A program made the position numbers and the translations under genes. A DNA stretch of 64,000 nucleotides from Dehalococcoidia bacterium (GTDB lineage: Bacteria; Chloroflexota; Dehalococcoidia; UBA2979), in the NCBI GenBank assembly GCA_963692775.1, contig OY839116.1:3016161-3080160 (forward strand), in the 5' to 3' direction. A model generated the notes under the pieces. It was not told where the DNA came from, searched no databases, and saw nothing but the letters and a program-made list of their open reading frames with translations. Below, piece by piece: positions 6,935 through 36,287 of this stretch (its first letter is position 1; each line of letters opens with the position of its first letter).

Positions 6935-7771
6935 TCAGAGCAGCGATCTGAGCGATCTCAGCAGGCGGCGGAGGTACGTCTCCTCCGTCTCGTTCTCGAC
7001 TGTCTCGATGTCGGTGCTGGCGACATTCCGGCCTGAGTCGAAGAATCTCCGGTTCCGATCTACTACACCGGTGGCCCGCACGACGCCGAAAGTCTCTCGT
7101 GTGTAGTCAACGAAGTCCTGTAGGCCAGTGCCAGTAATCTGGAGACCGGGACCGTCCTGTGGGGGCTTGGCCTCGAGGTTGACCTGCGCTGCGTTCGAAT
7201 CTTCCAGGAGCCGCCGGACGATGGCGTCTCCATGTTCGTCCCAGTCCGGGTTTGGTTGTCGGACCGAAACGAAGAATCGGGTCACCCGGTCTGTGCGGGT
7301 GAGCCAATTGCTGAACTCTTCCATGTCAGCGACGAATTCGGCGTCGAATGCGACTTCAGGATTCGGTGCTTGGCGCAGGATCATTCTCAGGGCGGTAGCG
7401 AAAGCGGTTCGCCTGACATCTCTCCGCTCCTCGAAGATCAGGTAGCGGGTATCTAGGTCGAGCACGAGGTACGAGAACTGGCCATGTCCCCTGCTGCCGG
7501 GAATGGTGATAAAGTCCTCGGCCTCTTCGTCGTACCGCACAGCGGGCTCATCCGTGCGGATGCTCTCGAAGCCGAGCTTCCCGAAGAGGACGGGCTCGTC
7601 GCCGAGTCGCTGAGGGCGTGCGAGACGCCAATTGCGCCCGTAGCGCGCCACGACCTGCTGCGGATCAAGCGCCTCCATAATGTCTGGCTCGAACGGCCGG
7701 TCACGCTGGGTAAGCAGGGGCAGGTCAGCGCTTCGGTTGATCCGCATCAGCCAGAGACGGCGTCGGGCCAT
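6935..7771 (-). CDS. hypothetical cytoplasmic protein (278 aa), upstream partner of the 4-TM protein
   Basis: RBS GGGAAGGGAG before the ATG. Low GC. No recognisable motif. Confidence 0.6.
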   Translation of the reverse strand: MARRRLWLMRINRSADLPLLTQRDRPFEPDIMEALDPQQVVARYGRNWRLARPQRLGDEPVLFGKLGFESIRTDEPAVRYDEEAEDFITIPGSRGHGQFSYLVLDLDTRYLIFEERRDVRRTAFATALRMILRQAPNPEVAFDAEFVADMEEFSNWLTRTDRVTRFFVSVRQPNPDWDEHGDAIVRRLLEDSNAAQVNLEAKPPQDGPGLQITGTGLQDFVDYTRETFGVVRATGVVDRNRRFFDSGRNVASTDIETVENETEETYLRRLLRSLRSLL

Positions 7772-7821
7772 GCTCGCGCTCCCTTCCCGCCGAATCTAGC
7801 AGGTCCGCGCACCGCGTAGCC

Positions 7822-8754
7822 CTACCCCGCGGGCGTAGCCGCCACCAGCTCCAGCACTGCCTCGCCGGCGGCCTGGATGGCGGCGACCTCGGAGGCGGCG
7901 AGGGGGGGCTCGTAGACCTCGAGGATGCCGCCGGCGCCGAGCAGGACCGGGGCGCCGACGTAGGCGTGCTCGATGCCCCACTGGCTGTCCAGCAGCGCGC
8001 AGCAGGGGAGGATGCGGCGCTCGTCGCGCAGGATCGCGTCGACCATCTCGATCGTCGCGGCGGCGGGGGCGGTGAAGGCGGAGCCCGTCTTGAGCAGGCC
8101 GACGATCTCGGCGCCGCCCTTCATCGTGCGGTCCACGACGGCCTCGATGCGGTCGGGGGCCAGCAGCGCGGTCAGCGGGACGCCGCCGACCGTGGCCGTC
8201 GAGACGACCGGGACCATCGTCGCCTCGGTGTGGCCGCCGAGGACCCAGGCCGAGACGTCGCGCACGGAGACGCCGAGCTCCATCGCGATGAAGGTGCGGT
8301 AGCGCGTGCTGTCCAGCATCCCGCCCTGGCCGACGACGCGCGCGGCGGGCAGCCCGCTCGCCTCGAGGGCGACGTGGCACATCGCGTCCATCGGGTTGGC
8401 GAAGATGACCAGCACCGCGTCCGGCGAGTGCTCGACCGCCTGGCCGACGACGCTGCGCACGATGCCGGCGTTGGTGCCGAGCAGGTCCTCGCGCGTCATG
8501 CCCGGCCTGCGCGCCACGCCCGAGGTGACGACGACGACGTCGGAGCCGGCGGTGTCCGCCCAGTCGTTCGTGCCGCCGACGGAGCTGCTGAAGCCGACCC
8601 AGGGGGCGCCCTCGGCGATGTCGAGCGCCTTGCCCTGCGGCAGGCCCTCGACGATGTCGATCAGCATGACGTCGGCGTAGCCGCGCGAGGCGAGGATCTG
8701 CGCCATGGTGGCGCCGGTGTTGCCCGCGCCGACAATCGTCACCTTGCTCCGCAC
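7822..8754 (-). CDS. mdh: malate dehydrogenase (LDH-like, NAD-dependent)
   Basis: N-terminal KVTIVGAGNTG Rossmann motif. Full-length similarity to MDH/LDH. Confidence 0.9.
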   Translation of the reverse strand: MRSKVTIVGAGNTGATMAQILASRGYADVMLIDIVEGLPQGKALDIAEGAPWVGFSSSVGGTNDWADTAGSDVVVVTSGVARRPGMTREDLLGTNAGIVRSVVGQAVEHSPDAVLVIFANPMDAMCHVALEASGLPAARVVGQGGMLDSTRYRTFIAMELGVSVRDVSAWVLGGHTEATMVPVVSTATVGGVPLTALLAPDRIEAVVDRTMKGGAEIVGLLKTGSAFTAPAAATIEMVDAILRDERRILPCCALLDSQWGIEHAYVGAPVLLGAGGILEVYEPPLAASEVAAIQAAGEAVLELVAATPAG

Positions 8755-27428: not shown

Positions 27429-27513
27429 GCCGGGGTGGCGGAACTGGCAGACGCAGCGGGCTTAAAACCCGCGGCCCTCGGGCGTGGGGGTTCGAATCCC
27501 TCCCCCGGCACCA
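27429..27513 (+). tRNA. tRNA-Leu (anticodon UAA), class II with long variable arm
   Basis: 85-nt cloverleaf read by hand: acceptor GCCGGGG/CCCCGGC, anticodon stem GCGGG/CCCGC, loop CUUAAAA, T-loop TTCGAAT, 3' CCA encoded. Confidence 0.85.
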
Positions 27514-28468: not shown

Positions 28469-29956
28469 TCAAGCGCCCTCGGAGGGCGCTGCTGCGGCGG
28501 CGCGGCCGGCCCAGCGGCCGAAGAAGGTGCAGTCGCCCAGCGAGAGGCCGCTGCTGTAGCCCCGCCCTTGTAGCCCCGCCGTCGCTCGCCCCGCCGCGTA
28601 GAGCCCGCCGATTGCGCTGCCGTCCGCGCGCAGTACCTCGCCCGTCATCGCCGTCGTGAGGCCGCCGATCGGGAAGCCCGACCAGACCGAGGCCGTGATC
28701 GAGAAGTCGAGCGCGGCGTAGGGCGGGCTGTCGAGCGGCTCGAGCCACTCCGGCGCCTTGTGGAACTCGGGGTCCTCGCCGCGCGCGGCGTGCTCGTTGT
28801 AGGAGGCCATCGTGCGCTGGAGACTGCCCTCCGGCATCCCCAGCTCGCGCTCGAGCTCCTCGTATGTCTCGCCGATGGCGACGATCTCCGCCTGCGCGAG
28901 CACCGGGCGGCGGTAGGTCTCGTCGTCGACGATCATCAGGACCTCGCCGCCGTGGTCGTAGAGGGCGGTCGGGCCGAGCTGATCGCGGTACTGGTCCTCG
29001 TTCACGAAGCGGCGGCCCTCGCGATCGACGAGCACGCCCTTCACGAGCCGCCTCGGCGGGCTCGTCGTCAGGTTCACCATGCCCCACTCCATGCGATCGA
29101 GGGCGGCCCCTAGGCCGAGGCCAAGACGGATCGCGATGCCATCGCTCGCGTCGGCGCCGAGCCGGTTGCGCAACTGCAGCAGCTCAGGCGCGTACTGCCG
29201 CAGCATTGTCTCGTTCATCACGAAGCCGCCCGTGCAGAGGACGACGCCGCAGCTCGCGCGCACGTGGCGCGTCTCGCCCTCGATGCGCGCTCGGAGGCCG
29301 ACCACGCGGGGCTCCTCCGGCGGTCCGCCCACCACGAGGCGCTCGACGCGTGCGCCGGTGACGATCGTCGCGCCGGCGGCCGCGGCTGCGGCGCTCAGCG
29401 CCTCCATCAGCACCAGTCCGCCGCCCTCGCCGGGGTGCTGCGGGTGGTGGCCGCGAGGCGCGGGCGCGGCGAGGGCGCTGAAGGGGTGCGCCAGCTCGCT
29501 GCCCGTGTAGGACAGCCCGTGCTCGGAGCCCCACGGGTAGGTACCGCGTTCGGGCGGCAGGAACTCCGCCTTGAACGGCACGCCGCGGGCGACGAGCCAC
29601 TCGTAGAGCTCGACGCTGCCCTCGCAGTAGGCGCGCAGCCACTCGTCGTCCGGTCCCGGCTGCACCGAGGCGCGCAGGTAGCGATACATCTCCCCGGGCG
29701 TGTCGTCGAAGCCGCAGGCGCGTTGCAGCGGCGTGCCTCCCCCGAGGTAGATCGAGCCGCCGGAGAGCGCGCTCGTCCCGCCGCCGGAGAACTCGCGCTC
29801 CAGCAGCAGCACGTCGGCTCCGGCCTCGGCGGCCTCGATCGCCGCGGATGCGCCCGCCGCGCCGAGGCCGACGACGACCACGTCGGCCTCGAGGTCCCAT
29901 CGGGGAACCTCGCTGGCCGCGAGCGGCGTGATCGGGCCGGCCTCGTTGTCGCTCAT
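28469..29956 (-). CDS. FAD-dependent oxidoreductase (fumarate reductase / KstD-like flavoprotein)
   Basis: VVVVGLGAAGASAAIEAAEAGADVLLLE FAD-binding motif. Start refined to MSDNEAGPI. Confidence 0.8.
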   Translation of the reverse strand: MSDNEAGPITPLAASEVPRWDLEADVVVVGLGAAGASAAIEAAEAGADVLLLEREFSGGGTSALSGGSIYLGGGTPLQRACGFDDTPGEMYRYLRASVQPGPDDEWLRAYCEGSVELYEWLVARGVPFKAEFLPPERGTYPWGSEHGLSYTGSELAHPFSALAAPAPRGHHPQHPGEGGGLVLMEALSAAAAAAGATIVTGARVERLVVGGPPEEPRVVGLRARIEGETRHVRASCGVVLCTGGFVMNETMLRQYAPELLQLRNRLGADASDGIAIRLGLGLGAALDRMEWGMVNLTTSPPRRLVKGVLVDREGRRFVNEDQYRDQLGPTALYDHGGEVLMIVDDETYRRPVLAQAEIVAIGETYEELERELGMPEGSLQRTMASYNEHAARGEDPEFHKAPEWLEPLDSPPYAALDFSITASVWSGFPIGGLTTAMTGEVLRADGSAIGGLYAAGRATAGLQGRGYSSGLSLGDCTFFGRWAGRAAAAAPSEGA

Positions 29957-30245
29957 CGCGGCGCCCGCAAGCGCTCCTCCTTCAGATCCTCGACGCTGTC
30001 GAGGTCCGGGTGCTGTTCCTGCAAGTAGGCGGGGATGACGAGGCCGATTGCCAGTTGCGGCTGAGGCTCTCGCCGCCAGAGACGACCTCGCCGAGTGCCT
30101 GGGTCTCCTCCCAGGCCTCGATCTGGTTGGGCAGCCAGATCTCCAGCGTAATGTGGCTGTCGCCACGCCGCAGCCCCTGCAGCAGCGGCAGCGCGTGCCC
30201 GAACACCAGCCCCCGAGCCTCCGCAGCCGCGAGGCGACGGCTCAA
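29956..30245 (-). pseudogene. frameshifted internal fragment (~85 codons) of a ProX-like substrate-binding protein gene; duplicate of 33043..33287
   Basis: Two overlapping listed ORFs (29953..30420 and 29982..30245) in different frames together reproduce VFGH.LPLLQGLRRGDSHIT.EIWLPNQIEAW...YLQEQHPDLDSVEDLKEER of the intact gene at 32459..33523. DNA identity is about 90%. Confidence 0.75.
29962..30211. repeat. direct repeat copy A (~250 bp) flanking the LRR lipoprotein insertion
   Basis: Aligns by eye with 33043..33287 with scattered mismatches (about 90% identity). Confidence 0.8.
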
Positions 30246-32200
30246 TCAGGCGGTCCGCACGCCCTGAACGCCGCCTCGCTGAACGGGTCCACCAGGTGCA
30301 AGTTGTTTTCGATGAGACACGAATCCCGTGCGCCCAAGTACTTGTTCTGCGCGCTCCTGATGACCTGGCCGGGGCCGTTCTCGAGGAACAGGATCCCCGC
30401 TTCCAGCATGCGGCTGGCAATCTCGATGCCCTCTCCGGCGAAGAGCGCCCAGCCGATTACGTTGCTGGCGCCTCCCGCAACCTTCACGCCCCTGATGACC
30501 CATTTGGCTGCGTGGCGATATCTGCCGTTGATTGCCAGATGCTGGACCGCGCGGATCTCTATCTTTTCGAGACCTTCCTTCTCGGCGTACTTTCTAATGC
30601 TATCGCTGCGCAACTGCGGATAGTTCGAGAATTGATCGTACGCCAGGACGGACAGGTCCACGAACCCGCGGAGCATGTCGGCCTGGAATTCATTCCAGTA
30701 GTTCCGGGTGTCTGCGGGTTCTTCCTCGGACCACGGGTTGTTCCTGAGGTCCACCGCGATCGTGGCTTCCGCGTTTTCGGCAAACCCATTGTCCAGCAAG
30801 AACTTCGCGCCACTGGTCAACTCGTTGCCGGACAGGTTCAGGACGGCCAGATTCGGGAGGTCGTTCAGCGCCTCCGGAATCGACCCGCTCAGGCCGTGCC
30901 GGCAGATCAGCGTGCAGCCGCGATCACGCTTGTTCCAGGACAGATCCAGCTCGACCAGGTTTTGCAGGTTCTCCCAGTCGATGCCGCGGTCGTGGCCCGG
31001 GTTCTGCTCCTCGATGTCCCCCCGGAACATGTTGCCGGAGAGGTTCAGGTGGGTAAGCGCGGTGAGCTGGTCCAGTTCGGGTGGCAGGGCCCCGCCGAGG
31101 TTGTTGCCGGAGAGGTCCAGGTGGGTGAGGGCGGTCAGGTCGCCCAGCATGTCCAGCCTGTTGTGCCCTCCGAAGAACCCGCCGCTGTCGTTGTCCAGGC
31201 TGACGCCCGGCAGCTCGAGCCCGATGACGCGTCCGCTCTCTTCGTCGACGGTCACCCCATACCAGTCCGCGACATCCCGGTCCTCACTCCACCTCACTCT
31301 ATAGCGGTTGAACTCATCGTCCAGATTCCACCACTCCCACGAATCGCCGTGGGTAGCGTCGTAGAAGCGAATGAGTGCGTCCCGGTCGCTTTCCGCCGAA
31401 CCCGGCGGCCCGGGGGGCTCCGGGTCCGGCGTGGATGTCGGCGTGGATGTCGGCGTGGACGTCGGCGTGGATGTCGGCGTGGATGTCGGCGTGGACGTCG
31501 GCGTGGACGTCGGCGTGGACGTCGGCGTGGACGTCGGCGTGGATGTTGGGGTGGCCGTCGGCGTGGATGTTGGGGTGGCCGTCGGCGTGGATGTTGGCGT
31601 GGATGTTGGCGTGGCCGTTGGCGTGGCCGTTGGCGTGGCCGTGGCCGTTGGCGTTGCTACCGCCGTGAGCGTGGGCGGGCAGGCTTGGTCCCACATCTCA
31701 TCCACCCGCTCCTCCGCAGCCTCGACGGCCGAAGCAGCCCGCAGGAGGGGATCCGAAGCCTCCAGGTTCGCCAGGGAGCGGAGGGCGACACGCGCGAACT
31801 CCCGTACCGCTTCCGCCGAGGCGACAACGGCTCTGTGCAGGGCCTCCAGCCCGTCGGGGACCCGCAGGCCCCGGAGCCGGGTGATGAGATCGCCGAGACG
31901 CGAGACGTGTGCGCTGTGGGGTCCCTCATCGATGATTTCGTCCAGAATGTCTTCTATCTCGTCCGCGAACGGCTCCAGGCTTTCCTCGTAGGCTGCGCAT
32001 GTGGCGGCCGTGGGCCCTCCACGCGCGGCCGCCGCGTCTCCGGTTTGGCCGGCCGTCTGCCCGCGATCCCGCGATTCCCACGGGTTCTCGCCGGATCCTG
32101 AGCCGCCATCGCAGGCGGCCGCCAGCGTGAGAAGCAGGCAGGCCTGAATCAGCGCCAACACGAACGCGTCGCGGAACAGCCGCCTGGGGAACGGAATCAT
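30242..32200 (-). CDS. lipoprotein with PT-repeat linker, leucine-rich repeats and a low-GC C-terminal domain of unknown function
   Basis: LAAAC lipobox; about 90 aa of (T/S/A)PT repeats; LRRs of the form LTALTHLDLSGNNLGGALPPELDQLTALTHLNLSGN. The last ~170 aa lie in ~55% GC DNA. Confidence 0.75.
   Translation of the reverse strand: MIPFPRRLFRDAFVLALIQACLLLTLAAACDGGSGSGENPWESRDRGQTAGQTGDAAAARGGPTAATCAAYEESLEPFADEIEDILDEIIDEGPHSAHVSRLGDLITRLRGLRVPDGLEALHRAVVASAEAVREFARVALRSLANLEASDPLLRAASAVEAAEERVDEMWDQACPPTLTAVATPTATATPTATPTATPTSTPTSTPTATPTSTPTATPTSTPTSTPTSTPTSTPTSTPTSTPTSTPTSTPTSTPTSTPDPEPPGPPGSAESDRDALIRFYDATHGDSWEWWNLDDEFNRYRVRWSEDRDVADWYGVTVDEESGRVIGLELPGVSLDNDSGGFFGGHNRLDMLGDLTALTHLDLSGNNLGGALPPELDQLTALTHLNLSGNMFRGDIEEQNPGHDRGIDWENLQNLVELDLSWNKRDRGCTLICRHGLSGSIPEALNDLPNLAVLNLSGNELTSGAKFLLDNGFAENAEATIAVDLRNNPWSEEEPADTRNYWNEFQADMLRGFVDLSVLAYDQFSNYPQLRSDSIRKYAEKEGLEKIEIRAVQHLAINGRYRHAAKWVIRGVKVAGGASNVIGWALFAGEGIEIASRMLEAGILFLENGPGQVIRSAQNKYLGARDSCLIENNLHLVDPFSEAAFRACGPPD
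31395..31680. repeat. tandem 12-bp repeat (~24 units) encoding the PT linker
   Basis: gtcggcgtggatgtcggcgtggac... units. The antisense listed ORF 31314..31694 shows HADV/HADI repeats. Confidence 0.85.
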
Positions 32201-32458
32201 GCTTTGGGAACTCCTCTAAGGGACATCATAGAGGCCGCGTTAAACCCGCAGACCCGCCGTCGCATAAGTCTTGCTAATGGACCAATGACAGTTTCATAGG
32301 ATGACTGTTACGAAATAACTCCCGGCGGACGTTCGACGACAGTCCTATGGGAGACCATTACGCAAAAGGAGTATGGCAAGCTTCTACATCGGGGGAGCGG
32401 ACGCCGCAAGGGTCACCCCGAAAACGCGGAGTGATGACTCTCACTCGCCGCCGGGCGG

Positions 32459-33523
32459 CTAGCCGGAGGGCCAGCCGGCGGCGGGCTTGCCCTCGGCCAG
32501 CGCCTCGCGGATCGCCTCGGCGGCTTCGGGGGTGACCCAGGCGGTCCAGATCCGCTCGTTGCTGCTCAGCCACCAGCGGGCGGCGTCCTCGGGGCTCGCG
32601 TCGCGCTCGAAGCTCCAGACGGCGAGCGCGCGGTAGACGTCGACGTTGAAGTCCCAGGCGCGCAGCATCGCGACCACGTCCGGCGCCTCGGTCAGCAGCG
32701 AGGGGTGAACCGCGATCAGGATCGTGGTCAACTCGTAGCCGCAGGCCTTCGTGCTGAACCAGCACTCGTCGCTGTACGGCGGCTCATCGAGCCGCACGAG
32801 GTCGAGCACGAGCGCCGGGTCCGCCGTGCCGTCCTGGTAGCCGAGCCACGGCTCGCCCTTCTCGTAGGAGCCGTAGAGGTCGGCGTTGAGCGCGGCGGCA
32901 TCGCCGGGGGCGACGATCGCGATGTGCCCGGAGAGGCCGTAGCCGGCGATCTGGGCGGCGTTGACCTCCTCGCAGGCCCAGCCGATCACGCACGTCACGA
33001 GGCGCGCCTTGCCGCCCGTCTCGGTCGTCGCGAAGAGCGCCCGGAAGCGCTCCTCCTTGAGGTCCTCGACGCTGTCGAGGTCCGGGTGCTGCTCCTGCAG
33101 GTAGCGGGGGATGACGAAGGCCGATTGCCAGTTGCGGCTCAGGCTCTCGCCGACGGAGACGACCTCGCCGAGCGCCTGGGCCTCGTCCCAGGCCTCGATC
33201 TGGTTGGGCAGCCAGATCTCCATGGTGATGTGGCTGTCGCCGCGCCGCAGCCCCTGCAGCAGCGGCAGCGTGTGGCCGAACACCAGCTCCGTCGGGTAGC
33301 CGTAGCCGTGCTCGACGATGTACTGGGCGATGCGGTTCTGGACCTGCGAGCTGGTCCAGGTGAGGTCGTTGAAGACCAGCGTCGGCTTGTCCTCGTCCCC
33401 CGAGCCTGCGCAGCCCGCGGCCAGCAGCGGGACCGCGATCAGCGCCGCGACCAGCGCGCCGGGGAAGGCCGCCCGCGCGCGCCCGTTCGCCGTCCGGACA
33501 GGCTTCATCCGCGTGATGGCCAT
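32459..33523 (-). CDS. glycine betaine/proline ABC transporter substrate-binding lipoprotein (ProX/OpuAC-like)
   Basis: Lipoprotein signal LLAAGC. The listed ORF start is trimmed to MAITRMKPV. Confidence 0.7.
   Translation of the reverse strand: MAITRMKPVRTANGRARAAFPGALVAALIAVPLLAAGCAGSGDEDKPTLVFNDLTWTSSQVQNRIAQYIVEHGYGYPTELVFGHTLPLLQGLRRGDSHITMEIWLPNQIEAWDEAQALGEVVSVGESLSRNWQSAFVIPRYLQEQHPDLDSVEDLKEERFRALFATTETGGKARLVTCVIGWACEEVNAAQIAGYGLSGHIAIVAPGDAAALNADLYGSYEKGEPWLGYQDGTADPALVLDLVRLDEPPYSDECWFSTKACGYELTTILIAVHPSLLTEAPDVVAMLRAWDFNVDVYRALAVWSFERDASPEDAARWWLSSNERIWTAWVTPEAAEAIREALAEGKPAAGWPSG
33043..33287. repeat. direct repeat copy B (inside the intact ProX-like gene)
   Basis: See copy A. 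Confidence 0.8.
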
Positions 33524-33641
33524 CCCGCGCTCCCGTCGCCGCCGCGCCCGTGCGCCGGGTATGGTACACGCGCGCGCCGCGGCGGACGCCTCCGCCGCGC
33601 GGGATCGCGGGCCGCGGAGCGGCCCGGAGGGAGGCAGCGCG

Positions 33642-34118
33642 ATGAGTGAGACGCGGGCCGTCCTCGGCAGCCGGGTGATGACGCAGGTCGCCTTCGTCGT
33701 CCCCGACATCGAGGCCGCCGTCGCGACGTACGCGGAGCTGCTGGGCATGGAACCGGCCGAGATCTACGTACCCCCGCTGCGCGAGGGCCGCGAGTACCGG
33801 GGCAAGCCGCTCCCACCCGAGGTCAACCTCAAGGTCGCGATGATCGAGCTGGACAACATCGTCCTCGAACTGATCGAGCCGATCGGCGGGCCGAGCGTCT
33901 GGAAGGACGTCCTCGACGAACAGGGCGGCGGCCCCGTCTTCCATCACGTCGCCTTCGAGGTCGACGACGGCGCGGCGGTCACCGACGACCTCGAGGGCCG
34001 TGGGTACCCCGCGCTGCACTCGCAGATCCGCGCCAACGGCGGGCGCATGGCCTACGTCGACGCGCGAGCGGAGTTGGGCACGCTGATCGAGGTGCTCGGC
34101 GGCGAGCCCGCGGGCTAG
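33642..34118 (+). CDS. VOC/glyoxalase-family protein
   Basis: Start refined to MSETRAVLG with a GGAGGGAGG RBS. HHVAFEVDD motif. Confidence 0.7.
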   Translation: MSETRAVLGSRVMTQVAFVVPDIEAAVATYAELLGMEPAEIYVPPLREGREYRGKPLPPEVNLKVAMIELDNIVLELIEPIGGPSVWKDVLDEQGGGPVFHHVAFEVDDGAAVTDDLEGRGYPALHSQIRANGGRMAYVDARAELGTLIEVLGGEPAG

Positions 34119-34120
34119 CG

Positions 34121-34963
34121 ATGACTGCCGACGGCGCCGGGCAGCTCGCCGGCCGCGTCGCGGTCATCACCGGGGCGGCGCGCGGCATCGGCTACGCGAT
34201 CGCCGCACGGCTGGGCAGCGAGGGCATGCGCGTCGTCATCGCCGACATCGACGGCGCGAAGCTCGCGCAGGCGGAGCGCGACCTGCACGCGGAGGGCGTC
34301 GAGGCGGTCGCCGTCCCGGTGGACGTGAGCGACTTCGCGGACATCGACCGGCTGCCGCGCGTGGCGCTCTCGGCCTTCGGCGCGATCGACGTGGTTTGCC
34401 TCAACGCCGGGGTGAACGCCGCGCACATCCCGAGCTGGGAGATCGGCCTCGACGACTGGGACTGGATCATCGGGCCGAACGTCTGGGGCGTGCTCAACGG
34501 CATCCAGGCCTTCGTGCCGCGTATGCTCGCGCTGGAGCGCGCGGGCGCCGAGGGCGGCCACATCGTGATCACTGCCTCGAACGGCGCGCTCGCCAGTCGC
34601 GCCGCGAGCGGGCCGTACCCGGTGACGAAGCGGCTCGTGCTCTCGGCCGCCCAGTCCCTCCATCACGACCTCAAGGCGGCGGGGTCCGAGCTGCGCGCCT
34701 CGGTGCTGCTGCCCGGCGCGATCCGCACGCACGAGGCGATGGCCCGCCGCGGCGAGCCGCGCGTCGCGCGGACGGACGACCAGCAGGACGCCGAGCAGCG
34801 CCGCATGCCGCCGGAGCAGGTCGCCGAGATCGTGCTCGGCGCAATCCTCGAGCCGCGCTTCTACATCCTCACCCACCCCGAGCGCTCGCACGCCCTCGTC
34901 CGCGCCCGCACCGGGTACATCCTCGAGGACCGCGACCCCGACTTCGGCGACCTCACGCCGTAG
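34121..34963 (+). CDS. SDR-family oxidoreductase
   Basis: VAVITGAARGIGYAIA Rossmann motif and NAG motif. Confidence 0.8.
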   Translation: MTADGAGQLAGRVAVITGAARGIGYAIAARLGSEGMRVVIADIDGAKLAQAERDLHAEGVEAVAVPVDVSDFADIDRLPRVALSAFGAIDVVCLNAGVNAAHIPSWEIGLDDWDWIIGPNVWGVLNGIQAFVPRMLALERAGAEGGHIVITASNGALASRAASGPYPVTKRLVLSAAQSLHHDLKAAGSELRASVLLPGAIRTHEAMARRGEPRVARTDDQQDAEQRRMPPEQVAEIVLGAILEPRFYILTHPERSHALVRARTGYILEDRDPDFGDLTP

Positions 34964-35024
34964 CAGCGCTTGGCCGCTCCGCCCGCCCCCCTGCTCCACG
35001 CCCTGCGCGTGCGAACATGGAGGC

Positions 35025-36287
35025 ATGAGCGAGACACCTCCGACGGTGATGATCGAGGACGTGCACGCGGCGCGGGAGCGCATCGCGGGGGCGGTGCGCG
35101 TGACGCCGCTCTGGCCGATCGGGTCGCTGTCCGCGATCGCGGGCGTGCCCGTGCTGCTCAAGTGCGAGCAGTTGCAGCGCGGTGGCTCCTTCAAGTTCCG
35201 CGGCGCCTCGAACATGCTCGCGGCCCTCGAGGAGCGGCCGGACGGCGTGGTCGCGGCCAGCGCGGGCAATCACGCGCAGGGCGTCGCGCTCGCCGCCGCG
35301 GAGCGCGGCATCCCCTCGACCGTGGTGATGCCGGCCAACGCGCCGCTCGCCAAGCAGGCCGCGACGCGCGCCTACGGCGCGGAGGTGGTGCTGCTCGACG
35401 GCGGGCTCGAGGCCTGCATCGCGCGCGCCCGCGAGCTCGCCGCCGAGTTCGGGCTGCTCTTCGTGCCGCCCTTCGACAACCCGGCGGTCGTCGCCGGGCA
35501 GGGCACGCTTGGCCTCGAGGTGCTCGAACAGGCGCCCGAGGCGGAGACGGTGCTCGTGCCGGCGGGCGGCGGCGGGCTGCTGGCCGGGGTCGCGCTCGCC
35601 ATCAAGTCGCTGCGGCCCGAGGTGCGCGTCATCGGTGTGCAGGCGCAGGCGATGCCGGGCATCGCCGCCTCGCTCGACGCGGGCTCGCCGCTGGCCGTGC
35701 CGCTCGTGCAGACCCTCGCCGACGGCGCGGCCGTCGCCGGCCCCTCGGATCTCACGTTCGAGCTGATCCGGCGCCATGTCGACGAGGTGGTCACGGTCGC
35801 CGAGCCGGACATCGAGCACGCGATGGTGCTGCTGATCGAGCGCGCCAAGTTCGTTGTCGAGGGCGCCGGAGCGCTCGGCGTCGCGGCCTTGCTCGCGGGC
35901 GCGGTCGAGTTGGGCGGGCCGGTGGCGGTGGTGCTGTCCGGCGGCAACGCCGACATCAACCTGCTCGGCCGCATCGTCGAGCGCGGCCTGACGGGCGCGG
36001 GGCGGCGTCGGCTGGTGACGTTCGCCGCCGCGCACGCGCCGGGCGAGCTGGCGCGGATCAGCGCGATCATCGCGGGCTCGCGCGCCAACGTGATCCAGGT
36101 CGAGCACCGGCTGACCGGCGACAACCAGCCGATCGGCGTCGTGCTGATCACCTTCCACCTCGATGTCGCGGGCGAAGAGGGCTTCGAGGAGCTGAGCGCC
36201 GCGCTGCAGGAGGCCGGGATGCGGGCCGGCGCCCCCGGCAGCGGCGCCGACTTCGTGACACCGAACGCGCAGGCGCTGCCCTGGTAG
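35025..36287 (+). CDS. ilvA: threonine ammonia-lyase (PLP-dependent, one C-terminal ACT-like domain)
   Basis: SFKFRGA around the PLP lysine. 420 aa, like short-form IlvA. Confidence 0.75.
   Translation: MSETPPTVMIEDVHAARERIAGAVRVTPLWPIGSLSAIAGVPVLLKCEQLQRGGSFKFRGASNMLAALEERPDGVVAASAGNHAQGVALAAAERGIPSTVVMPANAPLAKQAATRAYGAEVVLLDGGLEACIARARELAAEFGLLFVPPFDNPAVVAGQGTLGLEVLEQAPEAETVLVPAGGGGLLAGVALAIKSLRPEVRVIGVQAQAMPGIAASLDAGSPLAVPLVQTLADGAAVAGPSDLTFELIRRHVDEVVTVAEPDIEHAMVLLIERAKFVVEGAGALGVAALLAGAVELGGPVAVVLSGGNADINLLGRIVERGLTGAGRRRLVTFAAAHAPGELARISAIIAGSRANVIQVEHRLTGDNQPIGVVLITFHLDVAGEEGFEELSAALQEAGMRAGAPGSGADFVTPNAQALPW

What the first reader, a model, noticed from the sequence alone, without database searches (positions are those of the whole stretch)
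29962..33287. LRR lipoprotein gene bracketed by ~250-bp direct repeats from a partial duplication of a ProX-like gene
A frameshifted internal fragment of the ProX-like substrate-binding protein gene (29956-30245) abuts the start codon of the FAD-oxidoreductase gene and is about 90% identical to 33043-33287 inside the intact ProX-like gene. Both copies are in the same orientation.

Between them lie the lipoprotein gene carrying a PT repeat, LRRs and a low-GC tail, and a 258-bp low-GC intergenic region. This is the footprint of an insertion or recombination event that delivered a foreign surface-protein gene. No transposase or integrase is visible.
Basis: seen in the sequence. Interest (0 to 1): 0.65.

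Follow-up and report, generated by a model that had tools for sequence, protein, structure and literature searches.

The report
Strain-specific gene insertion with leftover duplicate
One lineage of likely sponge-associated Dehalococcoidia bacteria gained two surface-lipoprotein genes between a housekeeping gene and its promoter, and the "direct repeat" is a decaying leftover of a later local duplication, so this is an ordinary though unusually legible example of genome evolution.

Summary
The repeat is real. A frameshifted piece of the ProX/OpuAC-type binding-protein gene lies between the LRR lipoprotein gene and the FAD-oxidoreductase start codon, 92% identical to the intact gene 3.1 kb away, in the same orientation.

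The interpretation needs correcting. Ten related Dehalococcoidia genomes have an empty site, but it lacks the whole ~3.57 kb (intact ProX gene, 258-bp spacer, LRR gene and fragment), not only the LRR gene. In them the glyoxalase and FAD genes are divergent neighbours 52-142 nt apart (the eight spacers read out fully). The window nests inside this clade, so the segment is a single gain.

Base-level junctions suggest a clean 3,294-nt insertion (ProX ribosome-binding site to 2 nt past the LRR stop) at the centre of a native palindrome. Eleven nt of native leader follow, then the pseudo-ProX copy. That copy is longer than reported: codons 37-43 plus 80-162, joined across a 110-nt deletion. All junctions show 3-5 nt microhomology.

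The best fit is a later tandem duplication, or template switching, that included the LRR gene and was then mostly deleted. No transposase, integrase, terminal repeat or plasmid/phage similarity was found. ProX is compositionally host-like and the LRR gene is atypical. Interest is modest.

The parts
33534..33640 (-). Native divergent leader, part 1 (glyoxalase side), ending in ...GCGGCGGCGACG
   Evidence: It aligns with the glyoxalase/FAD intergenic region of the relatives, including the TAC..TACCCGG motif. Its last 12 nt are an exact match to L001.
30240..33533 (-). Block 1: a 3,294-nt insertion that is absent from all ten relatives. It runs from GGAGCGCGGG (the RBS, 10 nt before the ProX ATG) to 2 nt past the LRR stop codon.
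   Evidence: The two native flanks are directly adjacent (gap 0) in L001.
32459..33523 (-). Intact ProX/OpuAC-family substrate-binding lipoprotein gene (354 aa, lipobox LLAAGC). It is an orphan, with no permease or ATPase gene beside it.
   Evidence: Pfam OpuAC, E=1.2e-36, covering profile positions 2-256 of 257. It is identical to a public gene call, P0001. The best other homologue is 73% identical. Homologues sit in ABC_tran-BPD_transp_1-OpuAC operons. GC3 is 0.98, which is host-like.
33037..33286 (-). Repeat copy B (ProX codons 80-162), the source of pseudogene segment 2
33397..33415 (-). ProX codons 37-43 (lipobox region), the source of pseudogene segment 1
32201..32458 (-). 258-bp spacer with GC 0.56 upstream of the LRR gene
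   Evidence: It has no similarity to the upstream regions of LRR homologues, no Rfam match, no sigma-70-like promoter and no minus-strand terminator, and no similarity elsewhere in the window or loci.
30242..32200 (-). 652-aa modular lipoprotein: signal peptide and lipobox, an orphan helical N-domain, a (T-P-T-[A/S])n linker, an LRR domain, and a rare conserved C-terminal domain (the 'low-GC tail')
   Evidence: Pfam LRR families. The LRR + C-domain module is about 50% identical to P0121/P0122. The C-domain has only 14 representative clusters in 1.84 billion. The N-domain has no homologue. GC3 is 0.80-0.86. In the AF2 model the LRR part has pLDDT 80-94 and the C-domain is helical but below 50.
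31427..31642 (-). 12-nt tandem array (18 copies) encoding the PT linker
30229..30239 (-). 11-nt remnant of native leader (CGTCGCCTCGC), the second half of the palindrome GGCGACG^CGTCGCC
   Evidence: It is an exact match to L001, immediately after L001's copy of part 1. The positional Monte Carlo gives P=1.8e-3.
30210..30228 (-). Pseudo-ProX segment 1 (copy of codons 37-43), 18/19 identical
29961..30209 (-). Pseudo-ProX segment 2 = repeat copy A (copy of codons 80-162), with a 1-nt deletion and replacements at family-invariant residues
28469..29966 (-). Native leader part 3 (GGCGCCGCG, overlapping the pseudogene end by GGCGC) and the FAD_binding_2 oxidoreductase gene (ATG at 29956)
   Evidence: GGCGCCGCGATG is identical to L004. 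Pfam. The gene is 87-91% aa identical to the relatives.

Best explanation
This is a lineage-specific gain followed by local duplication and decay. It is not a mobile element flanked by its own repeats.

Step 1 (shown by comparison). The ancestor had the glyoxalase and FAD-oxidoreductase genes as divergent neighbours, sharing a leader of roughly 50-140 nt.

Step 2 (shown, junction position moderately supported). A 3,294-nt piece was inserted cleanly, with no target duplication or loss, at the centre of a 14-nt palindrome (GGCGACG^CGTCGCC) in that leader, between the FAD gene and its upstream promoter region. The piece carries an orphan ProX/OpuAC-type binding lipoprotein gene, an AT-richer spacer and an LRR surface-lipoprotein gene.

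Step 3 (inferred). A 3,187-nt unit running from ProX codon 37 to 11 nt past the insertion was later duplicated in tandem, or copied by equivalent replication template switching. The unit therefore included the LRR gene.

Step 4 (inferred). Microhomology-mediated deletions then removed about 2.8 kb of the second unit, including its LRR copy and 24 nt of native leader, plus a further 110 nt and 1 nt. What remains is a 268-nt dead ProX remnant abutting the FAD start codon.

The remnant has since diverged by about 8%, with replacements at residues that are invariant in the family.

Functional consequence (inferred). ProX, LRR and FAD are now co-oriented behind the old FAD promoter region, with no recognisable terminator between them. 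The cargo adds a solute-binding protein and a eukaryotic-like LRR surface protein to a probable sponge symbiont.
For: Empty site. Ten relatives (L001-5, L007-9, L023, L024) join window ~33,6xx directly to ~29,96x. The eight spacers read out fully are 52-142 nt.

Gain rather than loss. In the FAD-gene tree the window is sister to L005 (95.5% bootstrap) inside a clade with L007/L008 (100%), and L001-4/9 lie outside it. A loss scenario would need three or more precise deletions.

Timing. dS between the repeat copies is 0.22, below dS between window and L005 of 0.31.

Junctions. 12-nt and 11-nt exact matches that are directly adjacent in L001 are separated by block 1 in the window (P=1.8e-3). GGCGCCGCGATG is identical to L004.

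The pseudogene is a copy of this ProX. It is 86-87% aa identical to it, against 75% or less to the other family members compared. Two colinear segments match.

Decay. There is a frameshift. Five of seven replacements are derived in the fragment, at positions that are strongly conserved (T85 and A115 in 119/119; M101 in 112/119; V124 and F160 conservatively substituted).

Microhomology. CGC(G), CGG(G/A)G and GGCGC occur at the three novel junctions.

No mobile-element signature. The only genes in the island are ProX and LRR. No terminal inverted repeats, no Rfam match, no phage match, and only a trivial 5% plasmid match within the PT-repeat part of the LRR gene.

Composite composition. GC3 is 0.98 for ProX and 0.80-0.86 for LRR, against 0.93-0.98 for host genes. 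LRR homologues live in genomes of 61-64% GC.
Against: - The order and number of rearrangements cannot be read from one end state. A single multi-switch replication event gives the same product.
- The 11-nt native remnant was noticed post hoc. It matches L001/L003/L004-type leaders, whereas the window's closest relatives (L005, L023, L024, L007, L008) have shorter leaders without it.
- Pairwise dN/dS of 0.20, and an excess of synonymous G:C>A:T transitions in the fragment (my rough binomial, p about 0.02-0.04), are lower than expected for a copy that was dead from birth. This hints at a period of constraint or at a diverged template.
- No donor and no intermediate genome was found.
- Only one assembly carries the island.
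Confidence: 0.6

Rival explanations
1. The fragment is the eroded remnant of a second, once-functional ProX gene. This could be a tandem paralogue, or an allele from the donor that arrived with or before the LRR gene. It was then trimmed on both sides and internally by deletions.
For: dN/dS between the copies is 0.20, with codon-position differences of 5/2/12. This suggests that part of the divergence accrued under protein-level constraint. The copy has at least two colinear segments with an internal deletion, which is typical of progressive pseudogene erosion.
Against: The 11-nt native remnant upstream and the native leader downstream flank the fragment directly. A full gene would therefore have had to lose its 5' and 3' parts exactly up to the native sequence. 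No protein closer than 73% to this ProX exists in 5.8 billion sequences. The sample is only 19 substitutions.
Confidence: 0.2
2. The LRR gene and its spacer were delivered into or next to a resident ProX gene, and the 250-bp direct repeats are the footprint (a target or junction duplication) of that delivery.
For: The LRR gene and its spacer are compositionally distinct from ProX and from the host. LRR homologues lie in unrelated contexts, one of them next to an IS element.
Against: ProX itself is absent from all ten relatives. Copy B is followed by the rest of ProX, not by the insert, so the topology is a-R-b-LRR-R and not a-R-insert-R-b. The native remnant lies between the LRR gene and copy A. 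Another lipoprotein insertion 1.3 kb away in the relatives has no flanking duplication.
Confidence: 0.1
3. The island is ancestral and was precisely deleted in the other lineages.
For: Bacterial genomes are deletion-biased. A nearby slot shows presence/absence polymorphism among sister genomes.
Against: It requires at least three independent deletions, given the tree. Each deletion would have to restore a contiguous leader, and in L001 a perfect palindrome. No relative keeps any ProX or LRR remnant.
Confidence: 0.05
4. The arrangement is an assembly artefact or a chimeric join in a metagenome-assembled genome.
For: Only one assembly holds this ProX (cluster of 1 member on 1 contig). The exact LRR protein is not in the public protein collection.
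Against: The copies are 92% identical, not 100%, and the fragment carries its own indels. Both flanks are colinear with ten genomes. The junctions fall inside one short (about 50-140 nt) leader with microhomology. ProX GC3 matches the host.
Confidence: 0.05

Closest known systems
Tandem (segmental) duplication followed by deletional decay, joined by microhomology-mediated illegitimate recombination or template switching (MMBIR/FoSTeS-type). See also reports that spontaneous tandem duplications form around horizontally transferred genes in bacteria (PMC6614815 and PMC11111574, abstracts only).
   Same: There is a same-orientation partial copy of a gene one 'unit' downstream. The novel junctions have 3-5 nt microhomology. 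The leftover copy is non-functional and decaying. No recombinase gene is present.
   Different: Only the end state is seen, and no intact duplicate unit survives. Whether it was one complex event or several sequential events is unknown. No selective driver has been demonstrated.
Eukaryotic-like repeat proteins (LRR, ankyrin, TPR) of sponge symbionts, including sponge Chloroflexi (PMC6306507)
   Same: It is an LRR-containing predicted surface protein in a Dehalococcoidia clade whose relatives include MAGs from the SB06xx sample series. That series also yields the sponge-specific Entoporibacteria. The gene is strain-variable.
   Different: The architecture is particular: lipobox + orphan helical domain + PT linker + LRR + a rare C-terminal domain (14 clusters in 1.84 billion representatives). 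No function has been tested. The habitat of the window genome itself is not documented here.
OpuAC/ProX glycine-betaine-type ABC substrate-binding proteins
   Same: It has a full-length Pfam OpuAC match and a lipoprotein signal. Family members in related genomes sit in ATPase-permease-SBP operons.
   Different: Here the gene is an orphan with no adjacent permease or ATPase. It is at most 73% identical to any known member. The ligand is unknown.
Classical genomic islands, IS/transposon insertions and integron cassettes
   Same: It is a discrete block of accessory genes with tight boundaries (RBS to stop + 2 nt), inserted in an intergenic region and absent from relatives.
   Different: There is no integrase or transposase, no terminal inverted repeats, no target-site duplication, no attC-like structure and no tRNA at the junction. 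The 250-bp repeats are not its ends.

Membership tests
Mobile element (IS/transposon/integrative island) | Encodes a transposase, integrase or recombinase | tested here: not met
   The only long ORFs with family support in 29957-33533 are OpuAC and LRR. The flanks are syntenic housekeeping genes in ten relatives.
Mobile element (IS/transposon/integrative island) | Terminal inverted repeats, or att direct repeats, at the boundaries of the inserted DNA, and a short target-site duplication | tested here: not met
   The native halves flanking block 1 are directly adjacent in L001, with no duplication. No inverted repeat pairs the island ends. Pair I8 is simply the two native start-codon contexts. 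The 250-bp repeat is internal to ProX on one side.
Mobile element (IS/transposon/integrative island) | Similarity to known plasmid or phage DNA | tested here: not met
   There is no phage match. The one plasmid match covers 5% of the query at 68% identity, within the PT-repeat part of the LRR gene.
Integron gene cassette | An attC imperfect palindrome at the 3' end, and a nearby IntI/attI | tested here: not met
   The region after the LRR stop folds no better than shuffles (z = -0.15). No integrase is present. This was not a dedicated attC model search.
Partial tandem duplication remnant | Same-orientation copy whose closest relative is the adjacent gene | tested here: met
   The fragment is 92.4% nt and 86-87% aa identical to the neighbouring ProX, against 75% or less to other family members.
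Partial tandem duplication remnant | Novel junctions at non-homologous sites with microhomology; colinear segments at constant offset | tested here: met
   The offsets are 3,187 and 3,077 nt, differing by the 110-nt deletion. The microhomologies are CGC(G), CGG(G/A)G and GGCGC.
Partial tandem duplication remnant | An intact second unit or an intermediate state observed in some genome | not testable with these tools
   No conspecific genome is available. The ProX cluster has a single member.
Pseudogene | Disrupted frame and loss of constraint | tested here: met
   It lacks a start and the 5' and 3' parts, and carries 110-nt and 1-nt deletions. Five of seven replacements are derived, at conserved positions. 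Pairwise dN/dS of 0.20 is lower than expected, so constraint during part of the history is not excluded.
OpuAC/ProX substrate-binding protein | Full-length OpuAC domain above the Pfam gathering score | tested here: met
   127 bits against a cutoff of 21.2, covering profile positions 2-256 of 257.
OpuAC/ProX substrate-binding protein | Encoded together with its cognate ABC permease and ATPase | tested here: not met
   No such genes are in the island. Homologues in L021 and L022 do have them.
LRR eukaryotic-like surface protein | LRR repeats above Pfam thresholds, and an export signal | tested here: met
   LRR_4 43.2 bits and LRR_8 40.1 bits (cutoff 27). The N-terminal hydrophobic segment ends in AAAC, and homologues have LLVAC. 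The AF2 LRR solenoid has pLDDT 80-94.
LRR eukaryotic-like surface protein | Interaction with a eukaryotic host | not testable with these tools
   This needs experiments.

The most novel reading that the evidence does not exclude
The locus may record a recombinase-independent route by which probable sponge-symbiont Dehalococcoidia acquire and reshuffle eukaryotic-like surface-lipoprotein genes. Foreign DNA would be captured cleanly at a short palindrome in a promoter-proximal leader, followed by microhomology-driven duplication and deletion.

The neighbourhood would then be a hotspot for this. A second slot 1.3 kb away holds highly divergent PT-linker/RCC1 lipoproteins in six relatives.

A further possibility is that the ProX remnant is retained because it now serves as the leader that couples FAD-oxidoreductase expression to the inserted genes. 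Its post-frameshift frame ends in a TGA that overlaps the FAD ATG.
Probability: 0.15. Interest if true: 0.5.

Novelty: new member of a known kind. Interest (0 to 1): 0.3.

Why it matters
This is a clean natural example of how accessory surface-protein genes enter a bacterial chromosome without any mobile-element machinery. It also shows how later duplication and deletion leave misleading "flanking repeats".

For sponge-symbiont biology, it shows that LRR and RCC1 eukaryotic-like lipoprotein genes are strain-variable single-gene insertions at intergenic slots. It also defines a rare LRR + C-terminal module that could be followed up.

For annotation, it flags a 268-nt pseudogene and an insertion that separates a conserved oxidoreductase gene from its ancestral promoter region.

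It does not reveal a new kind of system.

Tried and rejected
- Exact-protein look-ups of the LRR protein and of P0001 found no contig, so the source assembly could not be inspected directly.
blastx of the non-coding pieces found only the ProX fragment.
- There are no Rfam families, no sigma-70-like promoters and no minus-strand terminators in the island. The post-LRR spacer has no significant hairpin.
- The palindrome GGCGACGCGTCGCC is not a repeated element in the window.
- I first read the 19 nt before copy A as weakly homologous to the ProX sequence just upstream of copy B. I rejected this once an 18/19 match 110 nt further upstream was found.
- I considered that the GGAGCGCGGG-ATG upstream of ProX might be the native FAD leader and start, because it weakly resembles the L007, L002 and L024 leaders. 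This is not resolvable, so the left junction is uncertain by about 10-20 nt.
- The RCC1-lipoprotein insertion in the relatives was checked for analogous flanking duplications and has none.
- The structure prediction gave a low-confidence C-domain, so no fold search was run.
- The N-domain search found nothing.
- The P0072 'LRR-OpuAC fusion' lies on a 5x-coverage contig and was not pursued.
- The metagenome-contig scan was not used, because the 5.8-billion-protein search already showed no closer ProX or LRR relatives.


Full report
**Observation**

The window around 28.4-34.2 kb carries these genes:

| Coordinates | Strand | Gene | Evidence |
|---|---|---|---|
| 32459-33523 | - | OpuAC/ProX-type substrate-binding lipoprotein | Pfam OpuAC, E=1.2e-36 |
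| 32201-32458 | - | 258-bp spacer | GC 0.56 |
| 30242-32200 | - | 652-aa lipoprotein | Pfam LRR_4/LRR_8/LRR_1/LRR_6 |
| 28469-29956 | - | FAD_binding_2 oxidoreductase | Pfam FAD_binding_2 |
| ~33641-34118 | + | Glyoxalase-family gene | Pfam Glyoxalase_4 |
| 34121-34963 | + | Short-chain dehydrogenase | Pfam adh_short |

Between the LRR stop codon and the FAD start codon lies a same-orientation copy of an internal part of the ProX gene.

- The core repeat is 29961-30209 against 33037-33286. It is 249/250 nt, with 19 substitutions and one 1-nt deletion, or 92.4% identity.
- A 29-mer from it occurs exactly twice in the window, against none expected.

**Comparative test**

A scan of one genome per species with the FAD protein returned nine closely related Dehalococcoidia MAGs at 87-91% aa identity. 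Two more came from the 90% protein cluster of the FAD enzyme.

In all ten that include upstream sequence (L001-5, L007-9, L023, L024), the glyoxalase gene and the FAD gene are divergent neighbours. The eight spacers read out fully are 52-142 nt. Window ~33,6xx joins directly to window ~29,96x.

The missing ~3.57 kb contains the intact ProX gene as well as the spacer, the LRR gene and the fragment. tblastn finds no ProX or LRR remnant in any relative locus.

In a neighbour-joining tree of the FAD gene, the window is sister to L005 (95.5% bootstrap). That pair lies inside a clade with L007/L008 (100%), and L001-4/9 lie outside. One gain explains the distribution, whereas loss would need at least three precise deletions.

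Synonymous divergence between the two repeat copies (dS 0.22) is below that between the window and L005 for the FAD gene (dS 0.31). This is compatible with everything having happened after that split.

**Junction anatomy**

Read on the minus strand, the native leader survives in three pieces.

1. The glyoxalase-side piece ends in ...GCGGCGGCGACG (to 33534).
2. An 11-nt piece, CGTCGCCTCGC (30239-30229), lies 2 nt after the LRR stop codon.
3. GGCGCCGCG-ATG (from ~29966) precedes the FAD gene and is identical to L004.

In L001 the first two pieces are exact 12-nt and 11-nt matches that are directly adjacent. Together they form the perfect palindrome GGCGACG^CGTCGCC.

A random 32-mer from the window gives an 11-nt match at that position (within 3 nt) with P=1.8e-3. 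The probability of such a match anywhere in the leader is 0.0125.

So a 3,294-nt block (33533-30240) looks like a clean insertion with no target duplication or loss. It runs from GGAGCGCGGG, 10 nt before the ProX ATG, to 2 nt beyond the LRR stop.

There are two caveats. The match was noticed post hoc. The window's nearest relatives also have shorter leaders that lack this stretch.

**The fragment is longer than reported**

The 19 nt between the native remnant and the core repeat (30228-30210, GGCTGCGGAGGCTCGGGGG) match ProX codons 37-43 (33415-33397) at 18/19, on the same strand and in colinear order.

The pseudo-ProX copy is thus codons 37-43 plus codons 80-162. The intervening 110 nt are deleted, and about 24 nt of native leader (as in L001) are missing downstream.

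The three novel junctions carry short microhomologies:

- CGC(G) at native remnant / segment 1.
- CGG(G/A)G at the 110-nt deletion.
- GGCGC at segment 2 / native leader.

**The fragment is a decaying copy of this ProX**

The gene itself has no homologue above 73% among 5.8 billion proteins.

Five of the seven amino-acid differences are derived in the fragment, at conserved positions:

- T85 and A115 are invariant in 119/119 homologues.
- M101 occurs in 112/119.
- V124 and F160 are conservatively substituted.

Seven of the eleven synonymous differences are G/C in the gene and A/T in the fragment.

Pairwise dN/dS is 0.20. That is lower than I would expect for a copy dead from birth (my rough binomial, p about 0.04-0.1), so some history under constraint or a diverged template cannot be excluded.

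**Mechanism**

The most economical reading has three stages.

- (i) Block 1 was inserted cleanly at the palindrome centre.
- (ii) A 3,187-nt unit (33415-30229) was duplicated in tandem, running from ProX codon 37 through the LRR gene to the 11 nt of native leader. This explains why native sequence sits between the LRR gene and the fragment.
- (iii) Deletions removed about 2.8 kb of the second unit together with 24 nt of leader, and also 110 nt and 1 nt.

A single replication event with several template switches would give the same product.

No recombinase is involved, as far as the sequence shows:

- The island contains only the two genes.
- It has no terminal inverted repeats.
- It has no RNA family match.
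- It has no phage similarity, and only a trivial plasmid match within the PT-repeat part of the LRR gene.

Recombination between the two repeat copies is conceivable, since the longest identical run is 37 nt. However, it would delete the ProX 3' half and the LRR gene, and would not regenerate the empty site.

**Origin of the cargo**

| Feature | GC3 (or GC) |
|---|---|
| ProX | GC3 0.98 |
| Neighbouring host genes | GC3 0.93-0.98 |
| LRR gene | GC3 0.80-0.86 |
| LRR upstream spacer | GC 0.56 |

The nearest LRR homologues lie in loci of 61-64% GC. The block is therefore probably composite.

ProX relatives normally sit in ATPase-permease-SBP operons, so this copy is an orphan cut just upstream of its ribosome-binding site.

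The LRR protein is modular.

- Its N-terminal 183 residues have no detectable homologue.
- A (T-P-T-[A/S])n linker is encoded by an 18 x 12-nt array.
- The LRR domain plus the C-terminal 'low-GC tail' form a conserved module, about 50% identical to P0121/P0122. In other proteins this module follows RCC1 repeats, Gly-rich repeats or FN3/LRR domains.
- The C-terminal domain has only 14 representative clusters among 1.84 billion.
- AlphaFold2 models the LRR solenoid confidently. It models the C-domain only as low-confidence helices, so I ran no fold search.
- The homologues lie in unrelated genomic contexts, one of them next to an IS element.

**Context**

LRR, ankyrin and TPR 'eukaryotic-like' proteins are a recognised feature of sponge symbionts, including sponge Chloroflexi (PMC6306507). 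One relative (L006) is from the SB0662 sample series, which also yields the sponge-specific Entoporibacteria (PMC7883664). The habitat of the window genome itself is not documented here.

**Verdict**

The repeat is real, and an insertion is demonstrated. However, the repeats are a by-product of later local duplication and decay, not the footprint of delivery of the LRR gene. The inserted unit includes the ProX gene.

This is a well-resolved but ordinary case of recombinase-independent gene gain and pseudogene erosion. Interest is 0.3.

Noticed in passing
window 34963-35025 (61-nt spacer between the SDR and PALP genes); L001 6246-8486 and the same slot in L002, L003, L004, L007, L009: There is a second variable slot 1.3 kb from the island. 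Six relatives carry 2.2-3.8 kb here. In L001 it is a 746-aa lipoprotein with a PT-rich linker and RCC1-like repeats. The versions in L002, L003 and L007 are only 45-48% aa identical, although their flanks are 84-90% nt identical. L007 has the gene and its sister L008 lacks it. The insertion has no flanking gene-fragment duplication.
   Followed up: partly
window 30245-30793 (-), LRR protein residues 470-652: The 'low-GC tail' is a conserved but very rare C-terminal domain, with 14 representative clusters in 1.84 billion. It always follows an LRR domain at the C-terminus of large proteins whose N-terminal modules vary. It has invariant Trp, Gly and Cys positions. It is predicted helical at low confidence, and its function is unknown.
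   Followed up: partly
window 29982-30245 (-) and 29953-29956: An 87-codon ORF starts with a TTG that overlaps the LRR stop codon (aTTGA), and it reads through the native remnant and the ProX fragment. The post-frameshift frame of the fragment ends in a TGA that overlaps the FAD start codon (ATGA). This could matter for translational coupling of FAD after the insertion, or it could be coincidence in GC-rich DNA.
   Followed up: no
L020 926-2569 (protein P0072): A 547-aa ORF fuses an N-terminal LRR region to a full OpuAC/ProX domain that lacks its signal peptide. It lies on a 5x-coverage contig. It may be another LRR/ProX juxtaposition or a frameshifted gene call. Other family members (577-584 aa) carry long repetitive N-terminal extensions.
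   Followed up: no
window 27429-27513: A tRNA-Leu(TAA) gene lies about 2.4 kb from the island, beyond the FAD and 3-hydroxyisobutyrate-dehydrogenase-like genes. It is not at an island junction.
   Followed up: no
window 30242-32200 (-): The exact LRR protein is absent from the public protein collection, although the ProX and FAD proteins from the same 3.22-Mb contig are present. The source annotation may have called this gene differently or not at all.
   Followed up: partly
L018 and L019, about 7,600-8,000: The upstream regions of two LRR/RCC1 lipoprotein genes from one sample share a conserved GC-rich element (...CCTTCC..TTGACGGGGGAAGGTT.GGA.GGGGGTG...). This is possibly a repeat element or a regulatory motif, and it is not present in the window.
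   Followed up: no
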